59,778 bases of DNA. Source: Escherichia phage vB_EcoS_SA80RD. How positions within the stretch are numbered: the first letter of the stretch is position 1; every line of letters begins with the position of its first letter. Position numbers and translations under genes: made by a program. Positions 8,729 through 52,450 of this stretch are shown in pieces. The notes beneath the pieces were generated by a model. The model worked only from the letters and a program-made list of their open reading frames with translations. It had not been told where the DNA came from and made no database searches. The DNA lies in the sequence record OL960575.1. One strand, 5' to 3'.

Positions 8729-9652
8729 ATGGCTACAGGTTCACGTTATTCGTGTTACTACGTCAAAGAAGATGTAAGCAACACTACGCCAGCGAATGCG
8801 AAGTTTACTCCGTTCCGTGTGACCAGCTCCGGTCTGGACATTAATATTGCAACGTTGGAATCTGAAGAACTGCGCGATGACGCCGAAACTGCGGATTTCC
8901 GCCTCGGTGCTCGCAGTGTTGAAGGCACAGTAACGGGCGAAATGTCCTTCGGCACCTTCGATGATCTTATTGCTGCTGCACTTCGTGGGGAGTGGCAAGA
9001 AAACGTCCTTAAAGGCGGTATTGTCCGTCAGTCGTTTACTTTCGTAGACTATAACGCAGATCTGCCGTCAGGTAAATATACAATTTATCGCGGTTGCGAA
9101 GTTAATAGCATGACTTTCTCATTGTCTGCGGAAAACATGACCACAGTGGAATTCGGCATTGTTGGTCGCTCAATGGAAATTGCGGAATCGCTCCCATCCG
9201 GTGCAACTATCAAAGAGCGTACAACTACGTCACCGATGGATGGTTTCTCCGGTCGCTTGCTGGAAAACAACGAAGAAATCAGCGTTATTACGGAAATCGG
9301 TCTTACCGTTGAAAACGATATTGCGCCGCGCTTTGTTGTTGGTTCTAAGTTCTCCATTGAACCGTCCGCTGGTCGTCGTGCGGTAACTGGTACAGCTAAC
9401 GTGTACTTCCTGGATAACAAGCTGCGTATGAAGTATCTGGATGAAGTGGAAACTTCAATCAAGTTTGATCTGATTGACCCAAGCAATCCGGAACAAAAAT
9501 ACACTGTGGAAATCCCTCGCGTGAAATTCACTGAAGCTCCACGTCCTATTGACGGTGAAGGGGATATCATGCTTAATATGGGCTACCGCGGATTGCTGGA
9601 CCCAACAACCGCAAGTTCCATCAAAATTACCCGCGTTCTAGCGGCAGAATAA
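8729..9652 (+). CDS. major tail protein
   Basis: 307 aa; RBS AAGAGAGGA; position immediately upstream of chaperone and tape measure. Confidence 0.55.
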   Translation: MATGSRYSCYYVKEDVSNTTPANAKFTPFRVTSSGLDINIATLESEELRDDAETADFRLGARSVEGTVTGEMSFGTFDDLIAAALRGEWQENVLKGGIVRQSFTFVDYNADLPSGKYTIYRGCEVNSMTFSLSAENMTTVEFGIVGRSMEIAESLPSGATIKERTTTSPMDGFSGRLLENNEEISVITEIGLTVENDIAPRFVVGSKFSIEPSAGRRAVTGTANVYFLDNKLRMKYLDEVETSIKFDLIDPSNPEQKYTVEIPRVKFTEAPRPIDGEGDIMLNMGYRGLLDPTTASSIKITRVLAAE

Positions 9653-9661
9653 GGATAAGAG

Positions 9662-10069
9662 ATGACCGACACCAAAAAAGCCAAAGTTGCAGTAGCTAAA
9701 AGCTTCCGTGATTTTAAAACTGTGAGCCGGGCAAACGACCCAGCAAACACTAAGCCGATGAATGTGGTTATTCCTGGTGTAGGCGACACTGGCGAAAAAC
9801 TCTACATTCGTAGCCGCTACTGCACAGAGTACCGTGATGCTGAACTGAAAGCACAGCGTCAACTGTTGGCGCTTATGCAGGGTAAAGACGGTGAAGTAAC
9901 GGATGCTATGAAGGAAGATATCCTTACCCGTTCACTGTGTAACCTTGTAGCTGGTTGGACTTTTGACGAGCCACCGACTGTTGACAACGTGTTTGAGTTC
10001 TTAACGGAGAACCCAACTGTCCGAGAAGATCTTAACGTATTTGCCGCTAAAGATAGTAATTTTTTCTAA
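9662..10069 (+). CDS. tail assembly chaperone (G-like)
   Basis: 135 aa ending ...KDSNFF at a TTTTTTC slippery heptamer; between major tail protein and tape measure. Confidence 0.6.
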   Translation: MTDTKKAKVAVAKSFRDFKTVSRANDPANTKPMNVVIPGVGDTGEKLYIRSRYCTEYRDAELKAQRQLLALMQGKDGEVTDAMKEDILTRSLCNLVAGWTFDEPPTVDNVFEFLTENPTVREDLNVFAAKDSNFF

Positions 10070-10467
10070 AAGCGCGCAGACAGTTAATTGATAAGAAGAT
10101 CCTCCAATGGGAACTAAATAGCAAAGTCCCCGGCGGGGGATCTTCTTTATTATCGCAACTGCAAAAGGTTGAGGAACAGTCTGGTAAGACGCCGCCTAAG
10201 CTTAAAGAATATCGGGAAAAGGAAATACCGATTTGCTTTGAATACCTGTCTACTTTATTTGATGACATTTACACGGGAGGGGATTTTAGTTATACAGAAT
10301 TGCACAGCTATCAGGCAACAATGGGCTTACATCTTCAACCGTACGAATGCGAAATACTGCGGCAGCTATGGCTTGAAAAGCGCGTGTCTGAAGCTGAACA
10401 AAATGCTAAACTCATGGAAAGTCAAATGCAAAATCAAAATAAAGGTAGAAGAAAAAGGAGAAGATAA
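9662..10467 (+). CDS. tail assembly chaperone -1 frameshift fusion product (GT-like)
   Basis: Slippery heptamer T_TTT_TTC at 10060-10066; the -1 frame is open for 133 codons from 10066 to a TAA at 10465-10467 that overlaps the tape measure ATG. Frame checked codon by codon. Confidence 0.5.
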
Positions 10468-13400
10468 TGGCCGAAACCGCTTCGCTAGTAATCAGAGTTG
10501 ACGCGAGAGGGATTAGTACCGCGGACTCTATGTTGCGGAACTTAGCGCGTACAGGTGACACAGCGGAGCGGTCTGCTCAACGTGTTACCTCCAGCTATAA
10601 AACATTGTCTAACACATCTAACGAACTTGCAACTGTCACAAGTCGTTTGGATGCTGCAATTGTAGGAATGATTAGCGTTGACACTATTAGCCGTGTTATA
10701 TCGCTATCGGACTCCTGGACTATCCTCACCAACAAACTTGAACTGGCTCGTACGGGTAATGAAACTGTTGCGGATGCGCAGCAACGCGTGTTTGATATTG
10801 CCCAGCGGTCACGTACAAGCTTGGAAGCAACTGCAACTCTATATTCCCGTCTCCAGCGTGCAATGAAGAATACTGGTATGACTGGTATGGAGCTTGGACG
10901 TATCACTGAAACAATCAACAAAGCGATGATTGTTTCCGGTGCAACGTCACATGAAGCAAGCGCTGCCCTTATTCAGTTTTCGCAAGCAATGGCGTCCGGT
11001 GTTCTGCGTGGGGACGAATTCCGATCCGTTGCAGAACAAGCGCCCCGCTTAACTCAAATCATGTCCGATGCGTTAGGTGTTACCATTGGACAATTGCGTG
11101 AAATGGCTTACAGCGGCAAGTTAACCGCCGATGTGGTTATCAAATCGTTGTCCGGTGCTGCGGATACAATTGATAAAGAATTTAGCCGCACTATGCCAAC
11201 GTTCAACCAGCAATGGACGATTGCAACAAACAACCTGACTAAATTTATGGGTGAGTCCCAAAAGACTCAAGGTGCGGTTGCTGCATTGGGACAGACGTTT
11301 GTTGCATTATCCGAAAACTTAGGAACGGTTGTAACGGTTGGTTCAGCTTTAGCCACAGTGATTACTGCCCGTATCATTACGGCAATGCTTGCTAAGACTA
11401 AAGCGTCTATAGCTGCTGCAAAAGCATCACAGATGGAAGCTGCACAAACGGCGGCAACTACTGCGGTGATGCAAAGCTCTATTGGCGTTACCGCGCAGAA
11501 AGCGGCTGCGGATCGTGCTGCTTCGCTTGCAGCGTTACAGGTTGCTCGCGGGTCATTAGCGGTTGCTAAGGGTACGGCAGCGGAAGCAGGTGCACGTCTT
11601 GCGCTTATTAACGCTACCCGTGCGCATTCGGCAGCAATTATGGCGGACGTACAAGCGCGGCAAGCGCTCAATGCTGCGCTTAATGCAACTGTACCAGCCG
11701 CAAGCCGGGCAGCTACAGCAATGAGCGTGCTGCGCGGTGCTATGGGGTTAATTGGCGGTCCGGTTGGTGTAGCAATGCTGGCAGCGGGTGCAATTTACTC
11801 CTATAAAGCGTCATTGGAAGCTGGTCGTGCGGAAAACAATCAGTTTGCGGATAGTGTTGATACTGTACGCGATAAACTGATGCAGATGACAGAAGCTCAG
11901 TTGGCAGCTAACGCAGTTAAAGCTCGCGCAATTCTCCCCGAACTTGAAGAGCAAATGAAGCGGGAGCAAACTGCTCTTAAATCTGCAACGGAAACGCAGA
12001 AGTTCTATGAAGCACAATTAAAACGTCGTGCTGCGTCCGGTCGTGATACAGCCAGTGCTGAAAAGAATTTACAAATTGCAACGGATAACGTCAAGCTTGC
12101 TGCGGAGCGTGCTGAAGAAGCTCAACGCCGTTACAACAATGTCTTAGAAATGACAAGCCCTGCTATCGAGAAGATAATTCCGTTAGCTCGTCAGCTTGCT
12201 GCGGATATGAAAGCAGTGCTTAATATCAAATCCGGTCCGCTTATTGACGAGAAAGTGCTTGATCGTTTTAAAGGTCAGTTAGGTGACGTTAACCGCGAAA
12301 TTGATGTTAACACTGTTAAAGGTGCGGGTAATGCTCGCCAGGCCGCAATCCTTAGTGGGCTGTATCAAACTCTGGGCAAAGATGCAGACACCTACGGAAG
12401 TCTAATTCGCAAAGTAGCTATGGGGCAGGATGTTAGCTCTGAAGCAACAAGCGAGTCCGCAAAAGAACTTGTTAAATATGCTCAAGAGCTAGCGGAAGCT
12501 TACGGCAAGAATTATGATCTCGAGGAAGCGGAGCGGAACCGAACTAAAGCGACAAAAGACGGTATTAAAGCAGAACAACAGAACGCCAAAGTTATTGACG
12601 ATTTACGGAACAAGCTTAACGAAGTAACTACAGGAGTTAAAGAAAACGCTAAAGCTAAAGCGCAAGCTGTGGCGCTTAATAAGCTCAATGCGTCTGCAAC
12701 GGCTGCGGAAAAAGCGGAAGTTGTTAGTCTTGCTGCTGCAATCTACGATGCAGAAGAAGCTCAAAAGAAACTGGACGAGCGTAAGAAGAATCGTAAGTTT
12801 GCTCAGGGTCTGTTAGATGAAGGTATGACAGACTATGAAAAAATCGCGTACGAGCAAAATACTAAGATTGCTGAGCTTACTGCTAAACAACGAGCAGATG
12901 ACCTAGCTTACTATCAACTTTATGAGGATGCCAAAACTCAAGTCCTGAAGAAAGCAAGCATGGAAAGGGAAAATCTGGATAAAGTTCTTATGAACCGAAT
13001 GATATCCTTTTCTCAGGAATCCTTGGGTATTATACTGTCAGGGCTGGAAGAAGGTGTTAGTAAACAGAACTTTATTTATAAGGCAATGTTTGCTGCACAG
13101 AAAGCAATGCAAATCCCGTCAATCCTTGCCAACACGGAGACAGCGGCATCAGCGGCGCTTGCGTGGGGTACACAGCAAGGCGGTGCTACAATGGGCGCAG
13201 CTATGGCTGGTATAGTGAAAGCTATGGGTTATGCGTCTGCTGCTACTGTGGGTGGCTTAGCAATCGCTGGTATGGCGCATGACGGTATTGATAATGTTCC
13301 GCGCGAAGGTACATGGTTATTGGATAAAGGTGAACGTGTACTTAATGCCCCGTCTAATGACAAGTTAAACCGCTTCCTGGATAGCCAAGCTTCACAACAA

Positions 13401-33879: not shown

Positions 33880-33908
33880 GAAAAAGAAAGCGCCTCATTG
33901 GGCGCTTT
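33880..33908 (-). terminator. rho-independent terminator (minus strand)
   Basis: AAAGCGCC-hairpin-GGCGCTTT followed on the minus strand by CTTTCTTTTTC. Confidence 0.6.
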
Positions 33909-33933
33909 CATTATAACGTGATATGTTTTGATA

Positions 33934-34737
33934 TTACAAGCCGTTCAGGGCTTCCGGTACTGGCATAGGCACACGGCCAGTTACACCATTAAACTTCTTC
34001 CAACGTGCATACTGAGTTTTAACGGTATCTTCGTTCAGACCGTGGCGACCAGCCAGATTCAGAACATAAGAGATCGGAGCAGGCTGACCCAGCGTAGCGC
34101 TAATCTGATCCATCAGAGCCCAGGCACGACCGCAGGAAGTTTCAGGTTGTGGGCGACGAACACCATTCTGTTCAGGCATACGGTTCGCTTCTTTCGCTTT
34201 TTCACGTTCAGCTTTTTCGCGGGCTTTTTCAGCAGCCTTTTCAGCCTGTTTAGCAGCGCGGATCTTGTCTTTGAAGCTTTTGATAGACGAATCCAGTTCG
34301 TCAACCATGCTCTGAGCAGCAGTTACTGCACCGGACAGATCTTCACCTTTGGATTTTTTAACAACTGCTTTCAGCTCTTTCAGAGCATTCTTTAAATGCT
34401 TCAGCTGTTCAGAACCCTTAGATTCTGCTTCCGTAATCTGTTCAACAGTGCTTTCATCGGTAATACCGGATAAAGCAAACTTCACGGTTTCAACTGCCTG
34501 GGAAAGAGCGGTAAATTTATTTTCCGCTTCAGTACGAATTTCAGCTTGTTTCTTTTCAGCGGCAGCTTTTTTCTCTGCTTCTTTTTTCTCTTTTGCTACG
34601 CGTGCAGCTTCAGCAGCAGCGGCTTTTTTAGCTTCTGCGTCGTTAGCAGTAGCTTCTTTCTTTGCAGGCTTAGCAGATTTTGCAGCGGCAGCAGCGGCTG
34701 CGGCAGCAGCGGCTTTCTTATCTTCAATATTACTCAT
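33934..34737 (-). CDS. Ala/Lys/Glu-rich low-complexity protein with structured C-terminal domain
   Basis: ATG at 34737 with GGAGTGA RBS; poly-Ala and KAxE repeats; C-terminus ...GRAWALMDQISATLGQPAPISYVLNLAGRHGLNEDTV. Confidence 0.5.
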   Translation of the reverse strand: MSNIEDKKAAAAAAAAAAAKSAKPAKKEATANDAEAKKAAAAEAARVAKEKKEAEKKAAAEKKQAEIRTEAENKFTALSQAVETVKFALSGITDESTVEQITEAESKGSEQLKHLKNALKELKAVVKKSKGEDLSGAVTAAQSMVDELDSSIKSFKDKIRAAKQAEKAAEKAREKAEREKAKEANRMPEQNGVRRPQPETSCGRAWALMDQISATLGQPAPISYVLNLAGRHGLNEDTVKTQYARWKKFNGVTGRVPMPVPEALNGL

Positions 34738-34864
34738 TTTCTTCACTCCGAATTATTATGGGTTCGTTTGTTACCAACGGGGTTAAATGTACCAAAGGAT
34801 TTTGTGACACGCAACCCCTTACATAAACATTTTTAAAAATATTTTTGATCAGGGTTAGAACTTA

Positions 34865-35359
34865 TTAGCTCTTCGCACCTCTGCCCGGTGTCCATGCTGC
34901 TTGCAATGCGGGTTGCTCACAAATGACCCTGGCACCGGAAATAATACCACCCTCCCGTTCAGCATCGTATTTGACACGGGTAGGTTTCCAAAGTCCTTCA
35001 TCCATTGACGGAACGTATTGCCCAATTTGAGGTGAGCAAAAGCCTTGGATATCGTATTCCACACAGAATTCGGCTTGTGCGCTAATTTGGGCGTGATCCA
35101 GGATTGTTTCTGGAAGTTGCGTAAAGTAATCAGACAAAATGCGCTCAACGATTTCCCGTTCATATGGTGCAGCTCCTAAGTTTTCTGTCAGGTTAATATA
35201 AAGCATTTGAAGATCAACATCTTCAAGATCTTTTAAATCGTTTACCGGTGTTACCAGTGTTGACTCTGGACAACAGATAATTCCAAGTTGGTGTAGTGTC
35301 AGCCAATTGGGATGCTTTGCCAAGAGCTCAAATTTATCTGTATCAATTAGGACGTACAT
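34865..35359 (-). CDS. hypothetical protein
   Basis: 164-aa ORF with AGGGGA RBS. Confidence 0.45.
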   Translation of the reverse strand: MYVLIDTDKFELLAKHPNWLTLHQLGIICCPESTLVTPVNDLKDLEDVDLQMLYINLTENLGAAPYEREIVERILSDYFTQLPETILDHAQISAQAEFCVEYDIQGFCSPQIGQYVPSMDEGLWKPTRVKYDAEREGGIISGARVICEQPALQAAWTPGRGAKS

Positions 35360-35418
35360 TGCAATCCCCTATAAATAAGTAATGCCCCAATAGTAGGGGC
35401 ATTAGATGTTGAAGTCAA

Positions 35419-50029: not shown

Positions 50030-50776
50030 TTACAGGATATGGGGGCAATAATATTTATCCATAACAAACTGAAAAACTTCTTCAGGTGTGCGGTCATTAC
50101 GAAGTTCAATCATATGATTGTCCAGCCATGCTAAACTCTCCTCAGCCTTATCTCTATTATTAAAGTGCAATAGCTTTGAAGGTGTATCGCCAGGAAGGGT
50201 AACTTCAATACAAAATGAACCTGTTTCTAAATGCGTTATGTCGCAAGTCGGCCAAACGCCGCGGTTTTCCCATATAGAAGGCGCATCCTCAAATCTGCAT
50301 GAGCTATACCATTTATTGCGAAGAGATGTGATCTCCTTACTTGTTAACGGGGCGCCCTTAACTCTTTCATGTTCCTCCAGCCAAGCTTTAAATTTTGGGT
50401 TAGGTTTGCGCCCCGGCTTCCCACCTTTCGCCTTTGCGCTTTCTTTAAACGCTTGCTCGTATGGGTCTGATCCTTTGCCCATGTGGTAATTGAATTTGCC
50501 CGTATAGCTGCGAAGCTCTTTGGCGTCCAGTTCATGTCCCAGCTTATCGCTCACCCATGCAAGGAAAGCTTCCCGCTCTGCATCCAGCTTTCCCGCTTTC
50601 GGTCTTACAGATTTTTTAACTGGCTGCTCCACATCCTCGTTGAAGTAATCTTCCACCATAGCAAGCGCCTGTGATTTGGTTGGTGCACCACGCAACCGTG
50701 AGCACGCTTGCACAACCCAAGCCGCGAAGCACATATCCTTAACCACAGTCTTTGAGGTAATAATTTCTTCACTCAT
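50030..50776 (-). CDS. hypothetical protein (first gene downstream of the iteron region)
   Basis: About 249 aa from ATG 50776 with GGTGG RBS. Confidence 0.45.
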   Translation of the reverse strand: MSEEIITSKTVVKDMCFAAWVVQACSRLRGAPTKSQALAMVEDYFNEDVEQPVKKSVRPKAGKLDAEREAFLAWVSDKLGHELDAKELRSYTGKFNYHMGKGSDPYEQAFKESAKAKGGKPGRKPNPKFKAWLEEHERVKGAPLTSKEITSLRNKWYSSCRFEDAPSIWENRGVWPTCDITHLETGSFCIEVTLPGDTPSKLLHFNNRDKAEESLAWLDNHMIELRNDRTPEEVFQFVMDKYYCPHIL

Positions 50777-50863
50777 AATCCACCTATACGCGTAGAAAGA
50801 AAGGTAATCATATAACAAAGTTTTTGTAATCGCAAAACCTTCGCAAAACTTTGTCTTTCCTGC

Positions 50864-51835: not shown

Positions 51836-52450
51836 TTAACCCTCCAAGCCGTTATATTTGCGCCAGGCGTAGAACTGAATGGCTACCGTCGTCCCGTTGT
51901 AAGAAGGCATTGCAGCTTTCATTTCTTTCAGCTCCGGCGTGCGGCCCAGTTCCTTCAGAAGCTTGTCGCCCATTGCCCACACTTCGGCAGTTTTTCCTTT
52001 CAGGGGCTTGCGAGCGCCATTTTTGAAATCACAGCGAGCAGCTTTTGCATCCTGTTTTGGCGCGGCAGCTTTTGGCTCTTCAATTTTGATTTCAGAAACC
52101 TGCGTGGCAGCTTTTGCGTGTTTCATATCTTTCTCTTCCTCCTGCTCCAGAGCTTCGAGGCAGCTTTTGACGATTTCCGGATTTACCATCGGGCGCAGTA
52201 CCGAGACGCTGGCAGCTGGCGCGGCGGTCGGTGCTGGGACTTTTTGCTCCGGCTGTTGCGCTTTTTTATGGTCGTGCAGTACCTGAAGCACTTCCTTCTC
52301 GACGATGTAAAAACCGATCTCGTCCTGATGGATTAGCTGTTCGTGCGCATCGCGTGCAACCTGGCCCCAGCGGGTCTTAAGAGCGCGGCGTGCATTCGTT
52401 TTCATGGTGTAGCGCATTTTATCCTGTTCGCGGTGAGTTACTTTAGACAT
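51836..52450 (-). CDS. hypothetical early protein
   Basis: 204 aa with GAGGAA RBS. Confidence 0.45.
   Translation of the reverse strand: MSKVTHREQDKMRYTMKTNARRALKTRWGQVARDAHEQLIHQDEIGFYIVEKEVLQVLHDHKKAQQPEQKVPAPTAAPAASVSVLRPMVNPEIVKSCLEALEQEEEKDMKHAKAATQVSEIKIEEPKAAAPKQDAKAARCDFKNGARKPLKGKTAEVWAMGDKLLKELGRTPELKEMKAAMPSYNGTTVAIQFYAWRKYNGLEG

What the first reader, a model, noticed from the sequence alone, without database searches (positions are those of the whole stretch)
33934..34737. Ala/Lys/Glu-rich low-complexity protein in the replication region
The N-terminal 200 residues are dominated by poly-Ala and KAxE repeats, with a run of 11 Ala near the start, followed by a more ordinary C-terminal domain. 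The composition resembles histone H1-like or nucleoid-associated proteins. Its antisense strand produces several artefactual ORFs in the track.
Basis: seen in the sequence. Interest (0 to 1): 0.35.

Follow-up and report, generated by a model that had tools for sequence, protein, structure and literature searches.

The report
Helical-rod phage protein with unclassified domain
This is a real, non-virion gene of Seurat/CAjan-type E. coli phages: a long Ala/Lys/Glu-rich helical rod ending in a small, conserved, unclassified three-helix domain that probably binds DNA; it is not a histone-H1-like protein and its function is untested.

Summary
The ORF is real. It lies on the minus strand at 33934-34737, encodes 267 aa, and equals gp44 of phage Seurat (98.7% DNA identity). 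Every phage record calls it hypothetical or gives it a composition-driven label.

Residues 1-70 are 77% Ala/Lys/Glu and include an 11-Ala run. Residues 166-185 are also low complexity. Residues 71-165 are conserved, ordinary helices. Residues 186-260 form a small, strongly conserved domain.

That C-terminal domain defines the family:
- about 1,900 protein clusters carry it;
- it has no Pfam or PDB relative by sequence;

All 85 orthologues have an Ala/Lys/Glu segment, but it is nearly neutral (+0.05 charge per residue). It looks like a helical spacer, not an H1-like polycation.

The gene keeps a fixed place (helicase, g45, this gene, queE...dpdA, clamp, PolA). It has its own sigma70-like promoter and terminator.

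Best reading (confidence about 0.4): an accessory, non-virion protein whose basic C-terminal domain binds DNA. Fusions to an HNH nuclease, a Zn-ribbon and a HeH motif, and tandem copies, support this. About 6% of family members carry signal peptides or lipoboxes, which argues against it.

The parts
33934..34737 (-). CDS, 267 aa (Seurat gp44 orthologue; PHROG 11298, unknown function)
   Evidence: ORF list; 98.7% DNA identity to Seurat/CAjan with an annotated CDS; PHROG 11298 at E 9.5e-121; 232 homologues.
34528..34737 (-). aa 1-70: Ala/Lys/Glu low-complexity segment, including the Ala11 run (aa 9-19, nt 34681-34713)
   Evidence: 77% A+K+E, net charge +5. Predicted helical but with low confidence over aa 1-30 (pLDDT 54-57). 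The length of the Ala run varies among close relatives.
34243..34527 (-). aa 71-165: conserved helical region. With the flanking helices it is predicted as three long helices (H23-90, H98-128, H132-184); their packing into an antiparallel bundle is inferred from fold matches.
   Evidence: Conserved in enterobacterial relatives. AF2 pLDDT 80-91. Foldseek finds only generic three-helix-bundle or spectrin-repeat matches, none significant.
34183..34242 (-). aa 166-185: second Ala/Lys/Glu/Arg helical linker (EKAAEKAREKAEREKAKEAN)
   Evidence: Composition; part of helix H132-184.
33958..34182 (-). aa 186-260: the conserved C-terminal domain. A beta-hairpin (PEQNGVRRP) is followed by three helices (aa 201-216, 222-229, 236-249) and GVTGR.
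34746..34749 (-). Shine-Dalgarno GGAG, 8 nt spacer before the ATG
   Evidence: Read from the sequence; annotated as RBS in Seurat.
34786..34814 (-). Putative sigma70-type promoter: TTGCGT, 17 nt, TACATT
   Evidence: Position and form (TTGCNN-N17-TAnnnT) recur in 8 diverged lineages. A TTG..TAnnnT site scoring >=7 lies upstream of the gene in 74% of 72 distinct loci, against 14% of random 120-nt windows. The loose pattern is not enriched in the window as a whole (13 found, 13.4 expected), and the stricter scanner missed the site. Inferred only.
34813..34856 (.). AT-rich imperfect palindrome overlapping the -35/UP position
   Evidence: Inverted repeats I1/I3, 74-75% complementary. Function untested.
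33886..33909 (-). Intrinsic terminator directly after the stop codon (9-bp stem, 6 GC pairs, T-run)
   Evidence: Terminator scan; annotated as terminator in Seurat.
34865..35359 (-). Upstream partner gene g45 (164 aa, PHROG 7864, unknown function)
   Evidence: In other phages the g45-type N-domain is fused in one ORF to the Ala/Lys/Glu linker and the domain (P0111, P0161, P0173, P0184, P0177, P0208). A terminator precedes it (35380-35404).
51836..52450 (-). Paralogue in the same genome: 204 aa ending in the same domain
   Evidence: HMM of the domain, E 1.7e-7, aa 158-219 of the 219-codon stop-to-stop reading frame (= aa 143-204 of the 204-aa ORF). Shares PHROGs 17772, 21588, 18634 and 11298 with the query through that domain.

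Best explanation
The gene encodes a cytoplasmic, non-virion accessory protein of the replication/recombination block of Queuovirinae-type siphophages. Host RNA polymerase probably transcribes it as its own short unit (promoter, gene, terminator).

The protein is an elongated all-helical rod. Near-neutral Ala/Lys/Glu helices flank a conserved region of three long helices. The rod acts as a spacer or oligomerisation element. It carries at its end a small basic domain (beta-hairpin plus three helices) of a family that has not been classified. That domain is the working part, and it most likely binds DNA. It would then tether the rod, and through it the partner protein g45, to DNA during infection.

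Shown here: anatomy, conservation, synteny, fold class, charge, domain fusions.
Inferred: DNA binding, timing of expression, tethering role.
For: - Conservation lies in the C-terminal 75 aa, with 10 invariant residues; the rest varies.
- Confident AF2 models show a hairpin plus three helices. The best structural neighbours are winged-helix or tri-helical domains: RecX, RPA32C, Z-alpha of ZBP1, MCM C-terminal WH, TnsD, PadR/MarR-type regulators.
- The domain is basic in 42 diverse members (mean net charge +3.5). Conserved Arg/Lys sit in the hairpin (RRP), helix 3 (YARW[RK]K) and the GR that follows.
- Fusion partners are typical of nucleic-acid proteins: an HNH nuclease of the COG3183 'predicted HNH restriction endonuclease' type, in a defence island beside Wadjet; a Zn-ribbon; a HeH/Rho_N-like motif in NP1 gp43; two or three tandem copies per protein.
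- Fixed synteny in 80+ loci: AAA_24, DUF669, exonuclease, helicase, (paralogue), (g45), this gene, queE...dpdA, clamp, PolA.
- One phage (L079) lacks the que genes at this locus but keeps this gene, so it travels with the replication block.
- It has its own conserved promoter-like site and terminator.
- The virion proteomes of Vid5 and R7M, as described in those papers, list only structural-module proteins plus a few named others, so the homologue is evidently absent; the supplementary protein tables were not opened (PMC6266253; PMC8265664).
Against: - About 6% of family representatives carry textbook Sec signal peptides or lipoboxes ahead of the normal N-terminus. Two are orthologues at the same genomic place (Vibrio CA8, Rhizobium RHEph04). 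The trait is scattered over the domain tree. An exported orthologue fits poorly with intracellular DNA binding.
- There is no sequence-level link to any DNA-binding family: Pfam and PDB give nothing, and a profile comparison with KfrA N-termini gives probability 0.3%.
- Only one HNH fusion was found.
- No repeated DNA motif that could serve as a binding site turned up, apart from one imperfect palindrome.
Confidence: 0.4

Rival explanations
1. The C-terminal domain is a protein-protein adaptor. Like RPA32C or the MCM and cullin winged helices, it docks several different phage proteins (this one, g45-type proteins, the 204-aa paralogue) onto one hub, such as the helicase, the phage clamp, DpdA or a host factor. 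The rod is a spacer.
For: - Each genome has two to four proteins with the same terminal domain but different other parts.
- This reading would tolerate exported variants if the target has a periplasmic face.
Against: - No partner is identified; no co-folding could be run.
- Fusion to HNH and Zn-ribbon modules, and tandem arrays, fit nucleic-acid binding better.
- The domain also occurs in satellite-like islands and in a bacterial nuclease that lack the phage replisome genes.
Confidence: 0.25
2. It is a site-specific transcription regulator, as some GenBank records label it. It would control its own promoter through the AT-rich palindrome, or the downstream queE-queC-... operon.
For: - HTH-like fold.
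- An imperfect palindrome overlaps the gene's -35/UP region.
- The gene lies directly upstream of queE in nearly all loci.
Against: - The 'FtrA' label has no support: no AraC/HTH_18 or other Pfam hit.
- A terminator separates the gene from queE.
- The palindrome is weak (74-75% complementary), and its conservation in diverged relatives was not shown.
- A 180-residue rod and multiple paralogues are unusual for a simple repressor or activator.
- L079 keeps the gene without the que operon.
Confidence: 0.12
3. It is an envelope-directed, TolA- or TonB-like protein. The Ala/Lys/Glu helix would span the periplasm and the C-terminal domain would bind an envelope target, for example for superinfection exclusion. 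The signal-less forms would be derived or would act differently.
For: - 6% of members have signal peptides or lipoboxes, gained or lost about 11 times on the tree.
- Composition resembles TolA domain II, and one source labels a homologue 'membrane protein involved in colicin uptake'.
- The layout is moron-like: promoter, gene, terminator.
Against: - The window protein and 94% of members have no hydrophobic segment at all. An Ala11 run is too weakly hydrophobic to act as a signal peptide (own knowledge).
- No Pfam match of any kind, so no TolA C-terminal (domain III) match.
- Fusions to HNH, Zn-ribbon and HeH modules are cytoplasmic-type.
Confidence: 0.08
4. One reading: a histone-H1-like nucleoid-associated protein that coats DNA through its Lys/Ala-rich low-complexity region.
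For: High Ala and Lys content, predicted extended helices, and a location among DNA-metabolism genes.
Against: - The segment is charge-balanced (K 23%, E+D 22%; +0.05 per residue) and Pro-poor, unlike H1, Hc1 or AlgP tails (established knowledge).
- It is the least conserved part, and it can lie on either side of the domain.
Confidence: 0.05

Closest known systems
KfrA of IncP/IncU/IncC plasmids (KfrA_N, PF11740, plus an Ala-rich coiled-coil tail)
   Same: A small tri-helical, DNA-binding-type domain joined to a long Ala/Glu/Lys/Arg-rich alpha-helical region, encoded beside replication and maintenance genes (KfrA sequences read). There is a loose shared motif of the form hxxxDxLxxxGxxPxxxxh...Wxx; one paralogue gives a sub-threshold KfrA_N hit (E 0.037).
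   Different: The domain order is reversed: here the helical rod is N-terminal. The query has no Pfam hit. A profile-profile comparison with six KfrA N-termini gives probability 0.3%. The beta-hairpin with the invariant QNG..RP motif has no KfrA counterpart. This is an analogue in architecture, not a family member.
Winged-helix / tri-helical HTH domains (RecX repeats, RPA32 C-terminal WH, Z-alpha, MCM C-terminal WH)
   Different: Sequence identity is 3-15%. The hairpin precedes the helices instead of following helix 3 as a classical wing does. No sequence profile connects them.
Phage phi29 p16.7 (membrane-anchored replication organiser: TM, coiled coil, C-terminal three-helix DNA-binding domain); comparison from my own knowledge, not tested here
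   Same: The layout: a helical or coiled-coil spacer followed by a small C-terminal three-helix domain, non-structural, associated with the replication block. Some family members add an N-terminal hydrophobic segment.
   Different: No detectable homology. The window protein has no membrane segment. Most hydrophobic N-termini in the family look like cleavable signal peptides or lipoboxes rather than anchors.
TolA domain II (COG3064)
   Same: Ala/Lys/Glu-rich long-helix composition. This is the source of some automatic labels.
   Different: No TM anchor and no Pfam match of any kind, so no TolA C-terminal (domain III) match, in the window protein.
Variable N-terminal domains of COG3183-type HNH restriction endonucleases (one relative carries a weak EVE-domain match)
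   Same: In one Undibacterium protein this domain occupies the N-terminal slot in front of the HNH module, where other members of that nuclease family carry other N-terminal domains. One relative has a weak EVE match (E 1.3e-4, 22.4 bits, just under Pfam's 23-bit cut-off) and another has DUF7669.
   Different: It is a single instance. No evidence shows that this domain reads a base modification.

Membership tests
Histone H1-like / bacterial H1-like nucleoid proteins (Hc1, AlgP type) | Strongly cationic Lys/Ala/Pro-rich repeat region that carries the DNA-binding activity | tested here: not met
   The Ala/Lys/Glu segments of 85 orthologues carry +0.05 net charge per residue (K 23%, E 18%, D 3%) and Pro is rare. 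In the query, aa 1-70 are net +5 and aa 71-185 about +1.
Histone H1-like / bacterial H1-like nucleoid proteins (Hc1, AlgP type) | The low-complexity region is the conserved, functional part | tested here: not met
   It is the most variable part in length, sequence and position. Conservation lies in the C-terminal 75 aa.
KfrA (PF11740 KfrA_N plus coiled coil) | KfrA_N DNA-binding domain detectable by profile | tested here: not met
   No Pfam hit for the query or for 42 domain sequences at E<=10. hhalign against six KfrA N-termini gives probability 0.3%. One paralogue (NP1 gp43) has a sub-threshold hit, E 0.037.
KfrA (PF11740 KfrA_N plus coiled coil) | Long Ala-rich alpha-helical region attached to the DNA-binding domain | tested here: met
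   AF2 predicts helices H23-90, H98-128 and H132-184. The order relative to the domain is reversed.
Winged-helix / HTH fold class | Three-helix core with a beta-hairpin, superposable on known members | tested here: inconclusive
Winged-helix / HTH fold class | Binds nucleic acid | not testable with these tools
   Only indirect support: basic charge and fusions to HNH, Zn-ribbon and HeH modules.
AraC/FtrA-type transcriptional activator (label in CAjan, EC151, Vid5 and other records) | AraC-type HTH (HTH_18) and/or DJ-1/PfpI-like domain | tested here: not met
   No such Pfam or NCBIfam hit. The label appears on some records only.
TolA (COG3064) | N-terminal membrane anchor and TolA C-terminal domain III | tested here: not met
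   No hydrophobic segment in the query. No Pfam match of any kind at E<=1, so no TolA C-terminal (domain III) match. Only the domain-II-like composition is shared.
Virion protein ('outer capsid protein' label in CSP1C) | Present in purified particles; encoded in the structural module | tested here: not met
   The gene lies in the minus-strand replication block, not the plus-strand structural block. The main texts describing the virion mass spectrometry of Vid5 and R7M do not include the homologue; the supplementary tables were not read.
PHROG 11298 (phage protein family of unknown function) | Full-length profile match | tested here: met
   E 9.5e-121, aa 16-267 against profile positions 1-260 of 273.
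7-deazaguanine DNA-modification system (FolE, QueD, QueE, QueC, DpdA) | Strict co-occurrence with the pathway genes, beyond shared genome backbone | tested here: inconclusive
   The gene is adjacent to queE in about 80 loci. All of these share the same replication backbone. One backbone relative (L079) keeps the gene without que genes in the 20 kb read. Paralogues in bacterial islands have no que genes nearby.

The most novel reading that the evidence does not exclude
The C-terminal domain is a reader of phage-type DNA, specifically 7-deazaguanine-modified DNA. Phages of this backbone would use it to tether several accessory proteins (this rod protein, g45-type proteins, the 204-aa paralogue) to their own modified genome. 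The rare bacterial domain-HNH fusion beside Wadjet would then be a type IV-like restriction enzyme aimed at deazaguanine-modified phage DNA.

My evidence does not exclude this. Nearly every phage with the domain also has the dpdA/que cluster, with the gene directly beside it. In the nuclease, the domain sits in the N-terminal slot that other, different domains fill in related HNH enzymes.
Probability: 0.07. Interest if true: 0.8.

Novelty: new variant of a known kind. Interest (0 to 1): 0.38.

Why it matters
The low-complexity region that drew attention is the least informative part of this protein. The useful result is a compact, unannotated domain family:
- about 1,900 clusters at 50% identity, absent from Pfam and PDB by sequence;
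- one of the most conserved non-enzymatic features of the replication block of Queuovirinae-type phages;
- two to four copies per genome on different carrier proteins;
- also present in satellite-like islands, and once on a defence-island nuclease.

If the domain binds DNA, it defines a new family of phage DNA-tethering modules. That would give a handle on several hypothetical genes in phages used as models for deazaguanine DNA modification (CAjan, 9g, Iggy). If it reads the modification, it would be the first known reader of 7-deazaguanine DNA. If neither holds, the exported variants point to a function that nobody has looked for. As it stands, this is a moderately interesting uncharacterised accessory protein, not a surprise.

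Tried and rejected
- Pfam, NCBIfam and PADLOC scans of the whole protein, and Pfam scans of 42 isolated domains, gave only composition-driven or sub-threshold hits. PHROGs returns only families of unknown function.
- PDB sequence and profile searches found nothing below E 0.2.
- I recalled a resemblance to KfrA_N and tested it by fetching six KfrA genes from plasmids. hhalign gave probability 0.3%, so I rejected family membership.
- Foldseek of the full-length model against the PDB found only generic three-helix bundles or spectrin repeats, E>0.4. This explains the 'plectin' label.
- The BFVD search returned only uncharacterised phage proteins. The AFDB library was not available.
- g45, the partner gene, has no Pfam or PDB relative even with a 15-sequence profile.
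- A repeat or iteron search around the gene found only codon-level repeats and one weak palindrome.
- The loose promoter pattern is not enriched in the window as a whole. Only its positional conservation counts.
- Literature searches for functional or essentiality data on this gene found nothing.
- A search for more que-less relatives of L079 found none; it is a singleton.
- The 240-aa g45 homologues (9g gp10 and others) may end in a divergent copy of the domain. hhalign gave P 0.003 and probability 10%, which is suggestive only.

Full report
**What the window is.** The 1.3 kb around the finding is 98.7% identical to Escherichia phages Seurat and CAjan (Seuratvirus, Queuovirinae). The ORF equals CPT_Seurat44, annotated 'hypothetical protein' with an RBS and a downstream terminator. 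Other records call the same gene 'transcriptional activator FtrA domain-containing protein', 'plectin 1' or 'outer capsid protein'.

**Checking the observation.**
- The ORF is on the minus strand, 33934-34737, 267 aa. GGAG lies 9 nt before the ATG.
- Residues 1-70 are 77% Ala+Lys+Glu and contain an 11-Ala run (aa 9-19).
- Forty other ORFs of the window average 21.6% A+K+E (sd 4.7). None has a 70-aa stretch above 51%.
- An Ala run that long never arose in 20,000 shuffles.
- The description overstates one point. Residues 71-165 have ordinary composition, are conserved, and are predicted helical. A second short Ala/Lys/Glu/Arg stretch covers 166-185.
- The plus-strand ORFs over the gene are Phe/Ser/Ala-rich mirror images. 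They are artefacts.

**Where the conservation is.**
- A search of 5.8 billion proteins gave 232 homologues.
- Only the closest share the whole length. Most share just the last 75 or so residues at 55-65% identity, preceded or followed by Ala/Lys/Glu-rich sequence of variable length.
- A 42-sequence alignment of this domain has ten invariant residues: P188, Q190, N191, G192, P196, W206, Y243, W246, G254, R255. The consensus is MPEQNGVRRPKPDTLCGxAWALxDxxSxxLGQPxPIAxxLxxAxxxGLNExNVKTEYARWRKFNGxTGRV.
- A profile search of 1.84 billion cluster representatives finds 1,937 proteins at E<=1e-3 and 834 at E<=1e-10.
- The domain has no Pfam family. The local Pfam-A finds none, and the precomputed column of the large database is empty for all 120 listed homologues.
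- It has no relative of solved structure by sequence or profile.
- PHROGs places the protein in family 11298. The domain also matches 18634, 21588 and 17772. All are of unknown function.

**Structure.**
- AlphaFold2 on the domain alignment gives a beta-hairpin (QNGVRRP) followed by three helices, pLDDT 79. In the full-length model this part reaches about 90.
- The rest of the protein is predicted as long helices (H4-20, H23-90, H98-128, H132-184). Foldseek finds only generic three-helix bundles or spectrin repeats for it, none significant. That match is probably where the 'plectin' label comes from.

**The low-complexity part is a spacer, not a polycation.**
- All 85 orthologues collected from phage and metagenome loci have an Ala/Lys/Glu-rich stretch (median 82 aa). 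It lies on the N-terminal side in 72 and on both sides of the domain in 13.
- Its composition is A 40%, K 23%, E 18%. Its net charge is +0.05 per residue.
- The domain itself is basic (+3.5 on average).
- H1-, Hc1- and AlgP-type tails are strongly cationic and Pro-rich (established knowledge). The H1 analogy therefore fails on its defining feature.

**Genomic context.**
- I inspected eight annotated phages (Seurat, Iggy, 9g, NP1, Vibrio CA8, Rhizobium RHEph04, a Stenotrophomonas phage and Achromobacter ART) and 80 IMG/VR loci.
- The order is almost invariant: AAA_24 ATPase, DUF669, Cas4-type exonuclease, SF2 helicase, (a paralogue ending in the same domain), (g45), this gene, queE, queC ... 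dpdA, sliding clamp, PolA. A Synechococcus phage (Yong-L2-223) was also inspected; there two adjacent genes carrying the domain follow dpdA, the clamp and PolA instead.
- The neighbourhood with the 7-deazaguanine cluster is striking, but all these phages share one backbone.
- The one informative exception (L079) keeps helicase, paralogue, this gene, clamp and PolA, with no que genes in the 20 kb read. The gene therefore appears to travel with the replication block. This is a single case.

**Expression signals.**
- The gene lies between two intrinsic terminators: 35380-35404, before g45, and 33886-33909, after its own stop.
- A sigma70-like site (TTGCGT, 17 nt, TACATT; 34786-34814) recurs in the same form and place in eight diverged lineages.
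- Across 72 distinct upstream regions, 74% have a TTG..TAnnnT site scoring at least 7, against 14% of random windows.
- The loose pattern alone is not enriched in the window.
- An AT-rich imperfect palindrome overlaps the -35/UP position.
- I infer an independently transcribed, host-RNAP-dependent gene. This is not shown.
- The published descriptions of the virion proteomes of two relatives (Vid5, R7M) do not include the homologue; I did not read their supplementary tables.

**A modular domain.**
- The window holds a second gene ending in the domain (51836-52450, E 1.7e-7).
- Other phages attach the domain to:
  - a HeH/Rho_N-like motif (NP1 gp43);
  - the g45-type N-domain (Stenotrophomonas gp52, ART_00084);
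  - the g45 N-domain plus an Ala/Lys/Glu linker in one ORF (P0111, P0161, P0173, P0184, P0177, P0208). This links g45 functionally to this gene.
- Proteins with two or three tandem copies exist (P0121, P0232, P0122, P0205).
- Outside phages:
  - The domain ends 142-aa proteins at the cargo end of about 8-kb islands with an integrase, DUF3987 and DUF5681 (satellite-like) in Pseudomonas, Comamonas and others.
  - It follows a Zn-ribbon in one viral contig.
  - Once it forms the N-terminus of an HNH nuclease in Undibacterium, immediately upstream of JetA/B/C. That nuclease belongs to the large 'predicted HNH restriction endonuclease' family. Other members carry different N-terminal domains, including a weak EVE match (E 1.3e-4, just under Pfam's cut-off) in one relative and DUF7669 in another. 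Only this one protein has our domain.

**Mechanism I commit to.** The domain is the functional part and most likely binds DNA. The rod is a near-neutral helical spacer or oligomerisation element. The protein acts as an accessory DNA-tethering factor of the replication/recombination block, together with g45. The support is the fold class, the basic charge, conserved Arg/Lys in the hairpin and helix 3, the nucleic-acid-type fusion partners, the tandem arrays and the synteny. I put this at about 0.4.

**The main problem with that model.**
- Sixteen of 260 family representatives (6%) start with a textbook Sec signal peptide (for example MNKIAFLLASAALSVPARAFA|D) or a lipobox (LMAC, LIAC, LAAC, LGAC).
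- These are placed in front of the usual 'KTPEQLAAE' N-terminus.
- In Vibrio phage CA8 and Rhizobium phage RHEph04 the gene with such a start has a good Shine-Dalgarno sequence and sits at the orthologous place.
- The trait is scattered over the domain tree, with about 11 changes.
- Exported orthologues do not fit a purely intracellular DNA-binding role. They keep open a protein-adaptor model and an envelope-directed model.
- The window protein has no hydrophobic segment, only Ala11.

**Comparison with known systems.**
- The nearest architectural analogue is plasmid KfrA: a tri-helical DNA-binding domain plus a long Ala-rich helix, encoded beside replication genes. Membership fails: no Pfam hit, hhalign probability 0.3%, and reversed domain order.
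- Phage phi29 p16.7 and TolA are analogies of layout or composition only.
- The protein is a full member only of PHROG 11298, which has no known function.
- I file it as a new variant of a known kind: a small HTH-like domain on a helical rod, with the domain family itself undescribed.

**Verdict.** The H1-like interpretation is not supported, but a DNA-related role is plausible through a different part of the protein. Interest is moderate (0.38). The most novel reading still open is that the domain reads 7-deazaguanine-modified DNA. It has low probability (about 0.07), but EMSA on CAjan wild-type versus delta-dpdA DNA would test it directly.

Noticed in passing
window 51836-52450 (-): A 204-aa ORF ends in the same C-terminal domain (E 1.7e-7). 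Its N-terminal 'YT.K.NARRA' motif is shared with 142-aa hypothetical proteins at the cargo end of about 8-kb islands (integrase, DUF3987, DUF5681; satellite-like) in Pseudomonas aeruginosa, Comamonas, Stenotrophomonas and others.
   Followed up: partly
window 34865-35359 (-), g45: Seurat-type g45 (164 aa) is a short form. Homologues in 9g, Vid5 and others are about 240 aa, with an extra C-terminal motif (IWxxADxMWxxAGxP...LGxWxK) that may be a divergent copy of the same domain (hhalign P 0.003, not conclusive). In several metagenomic phages the g45 N-domain is fused in one ORF to the Ala/Lys/Glu linker and the domain.
   Followed up: partly
L006 3866-4537 (Vibrio phage CA8); L005 3905-4507 (Rhizobium phage RHEph04); P0143, P0154, P0135, P0116, P0117, P0147, P0141: About 6% of family members, including orthologues at the same genomic place, carry Sec signal peptides or lipoboxes. 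The trait was gained or lost about 11 times on the domain tree. No model explains this.
   Followed up: partly
L079 / L112 (IMGVR_UViG_3300049917_000087), about 8800-12400: A phage with the same replication backbone has no que/dpdA genes in the 20 kb read around this locus. A 154-aa ORF whose sequence looked to me (by eye; not scanned against any library) like a nucleoside 2-deoxyribosyltransferase lies between this gene's orthologue and the clamp gene. It could hint at a different nucleotide or DNA chemistry.
   Followed up: no
L098 7986-8756 (Undibacterium sp. Ji83W): A 256-aa protein has the domain at its N-terminus and an HNH nuclease at its C-terminus. It lies directly upstream of a Wadjet-like JetA/JetB/JetC operon. 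It is the only such fusion among about 120 relatives of the nuclease half.
   Followed up: yes
L116 3460-4401: A viral-contig protein combines the 'TY.T..A' N-terminal motif, a helical region, a four-Cys Zn-ribbon and the domain.
   Followed up: no
window 34813-34856: An AT-rich imperfect palindrome (AACCCCTTACATAAACATTTTTAAAAATATTTTTGATCAGGGTT) overlaps the -35/UP region of the gene's putative promoter. It could be an operator or an UP element.
   Followed up: no
window 50030-50818 (-): By eye, a 262-aa ORF near the paralogue contains two stretches with a loosely similar pattern (RPKAGK..FLAWVSDKLG.. and GRKPNPKFKAWLEEH..G.P). The domain HMM did not detect them, so this is possibly chance.
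   Followed up: no
GenBank records of relatives (CAjan, Greed, CSP1C, EC151, Vid5, Iggy): The labels 'transcriptional activator FtrA domain-containing protein', 'plectin 1' and 'outer capsid protein' for this gene have no support from profile searches. They appear to come from low-complexity or long-helix matches.
   Followed up: yes
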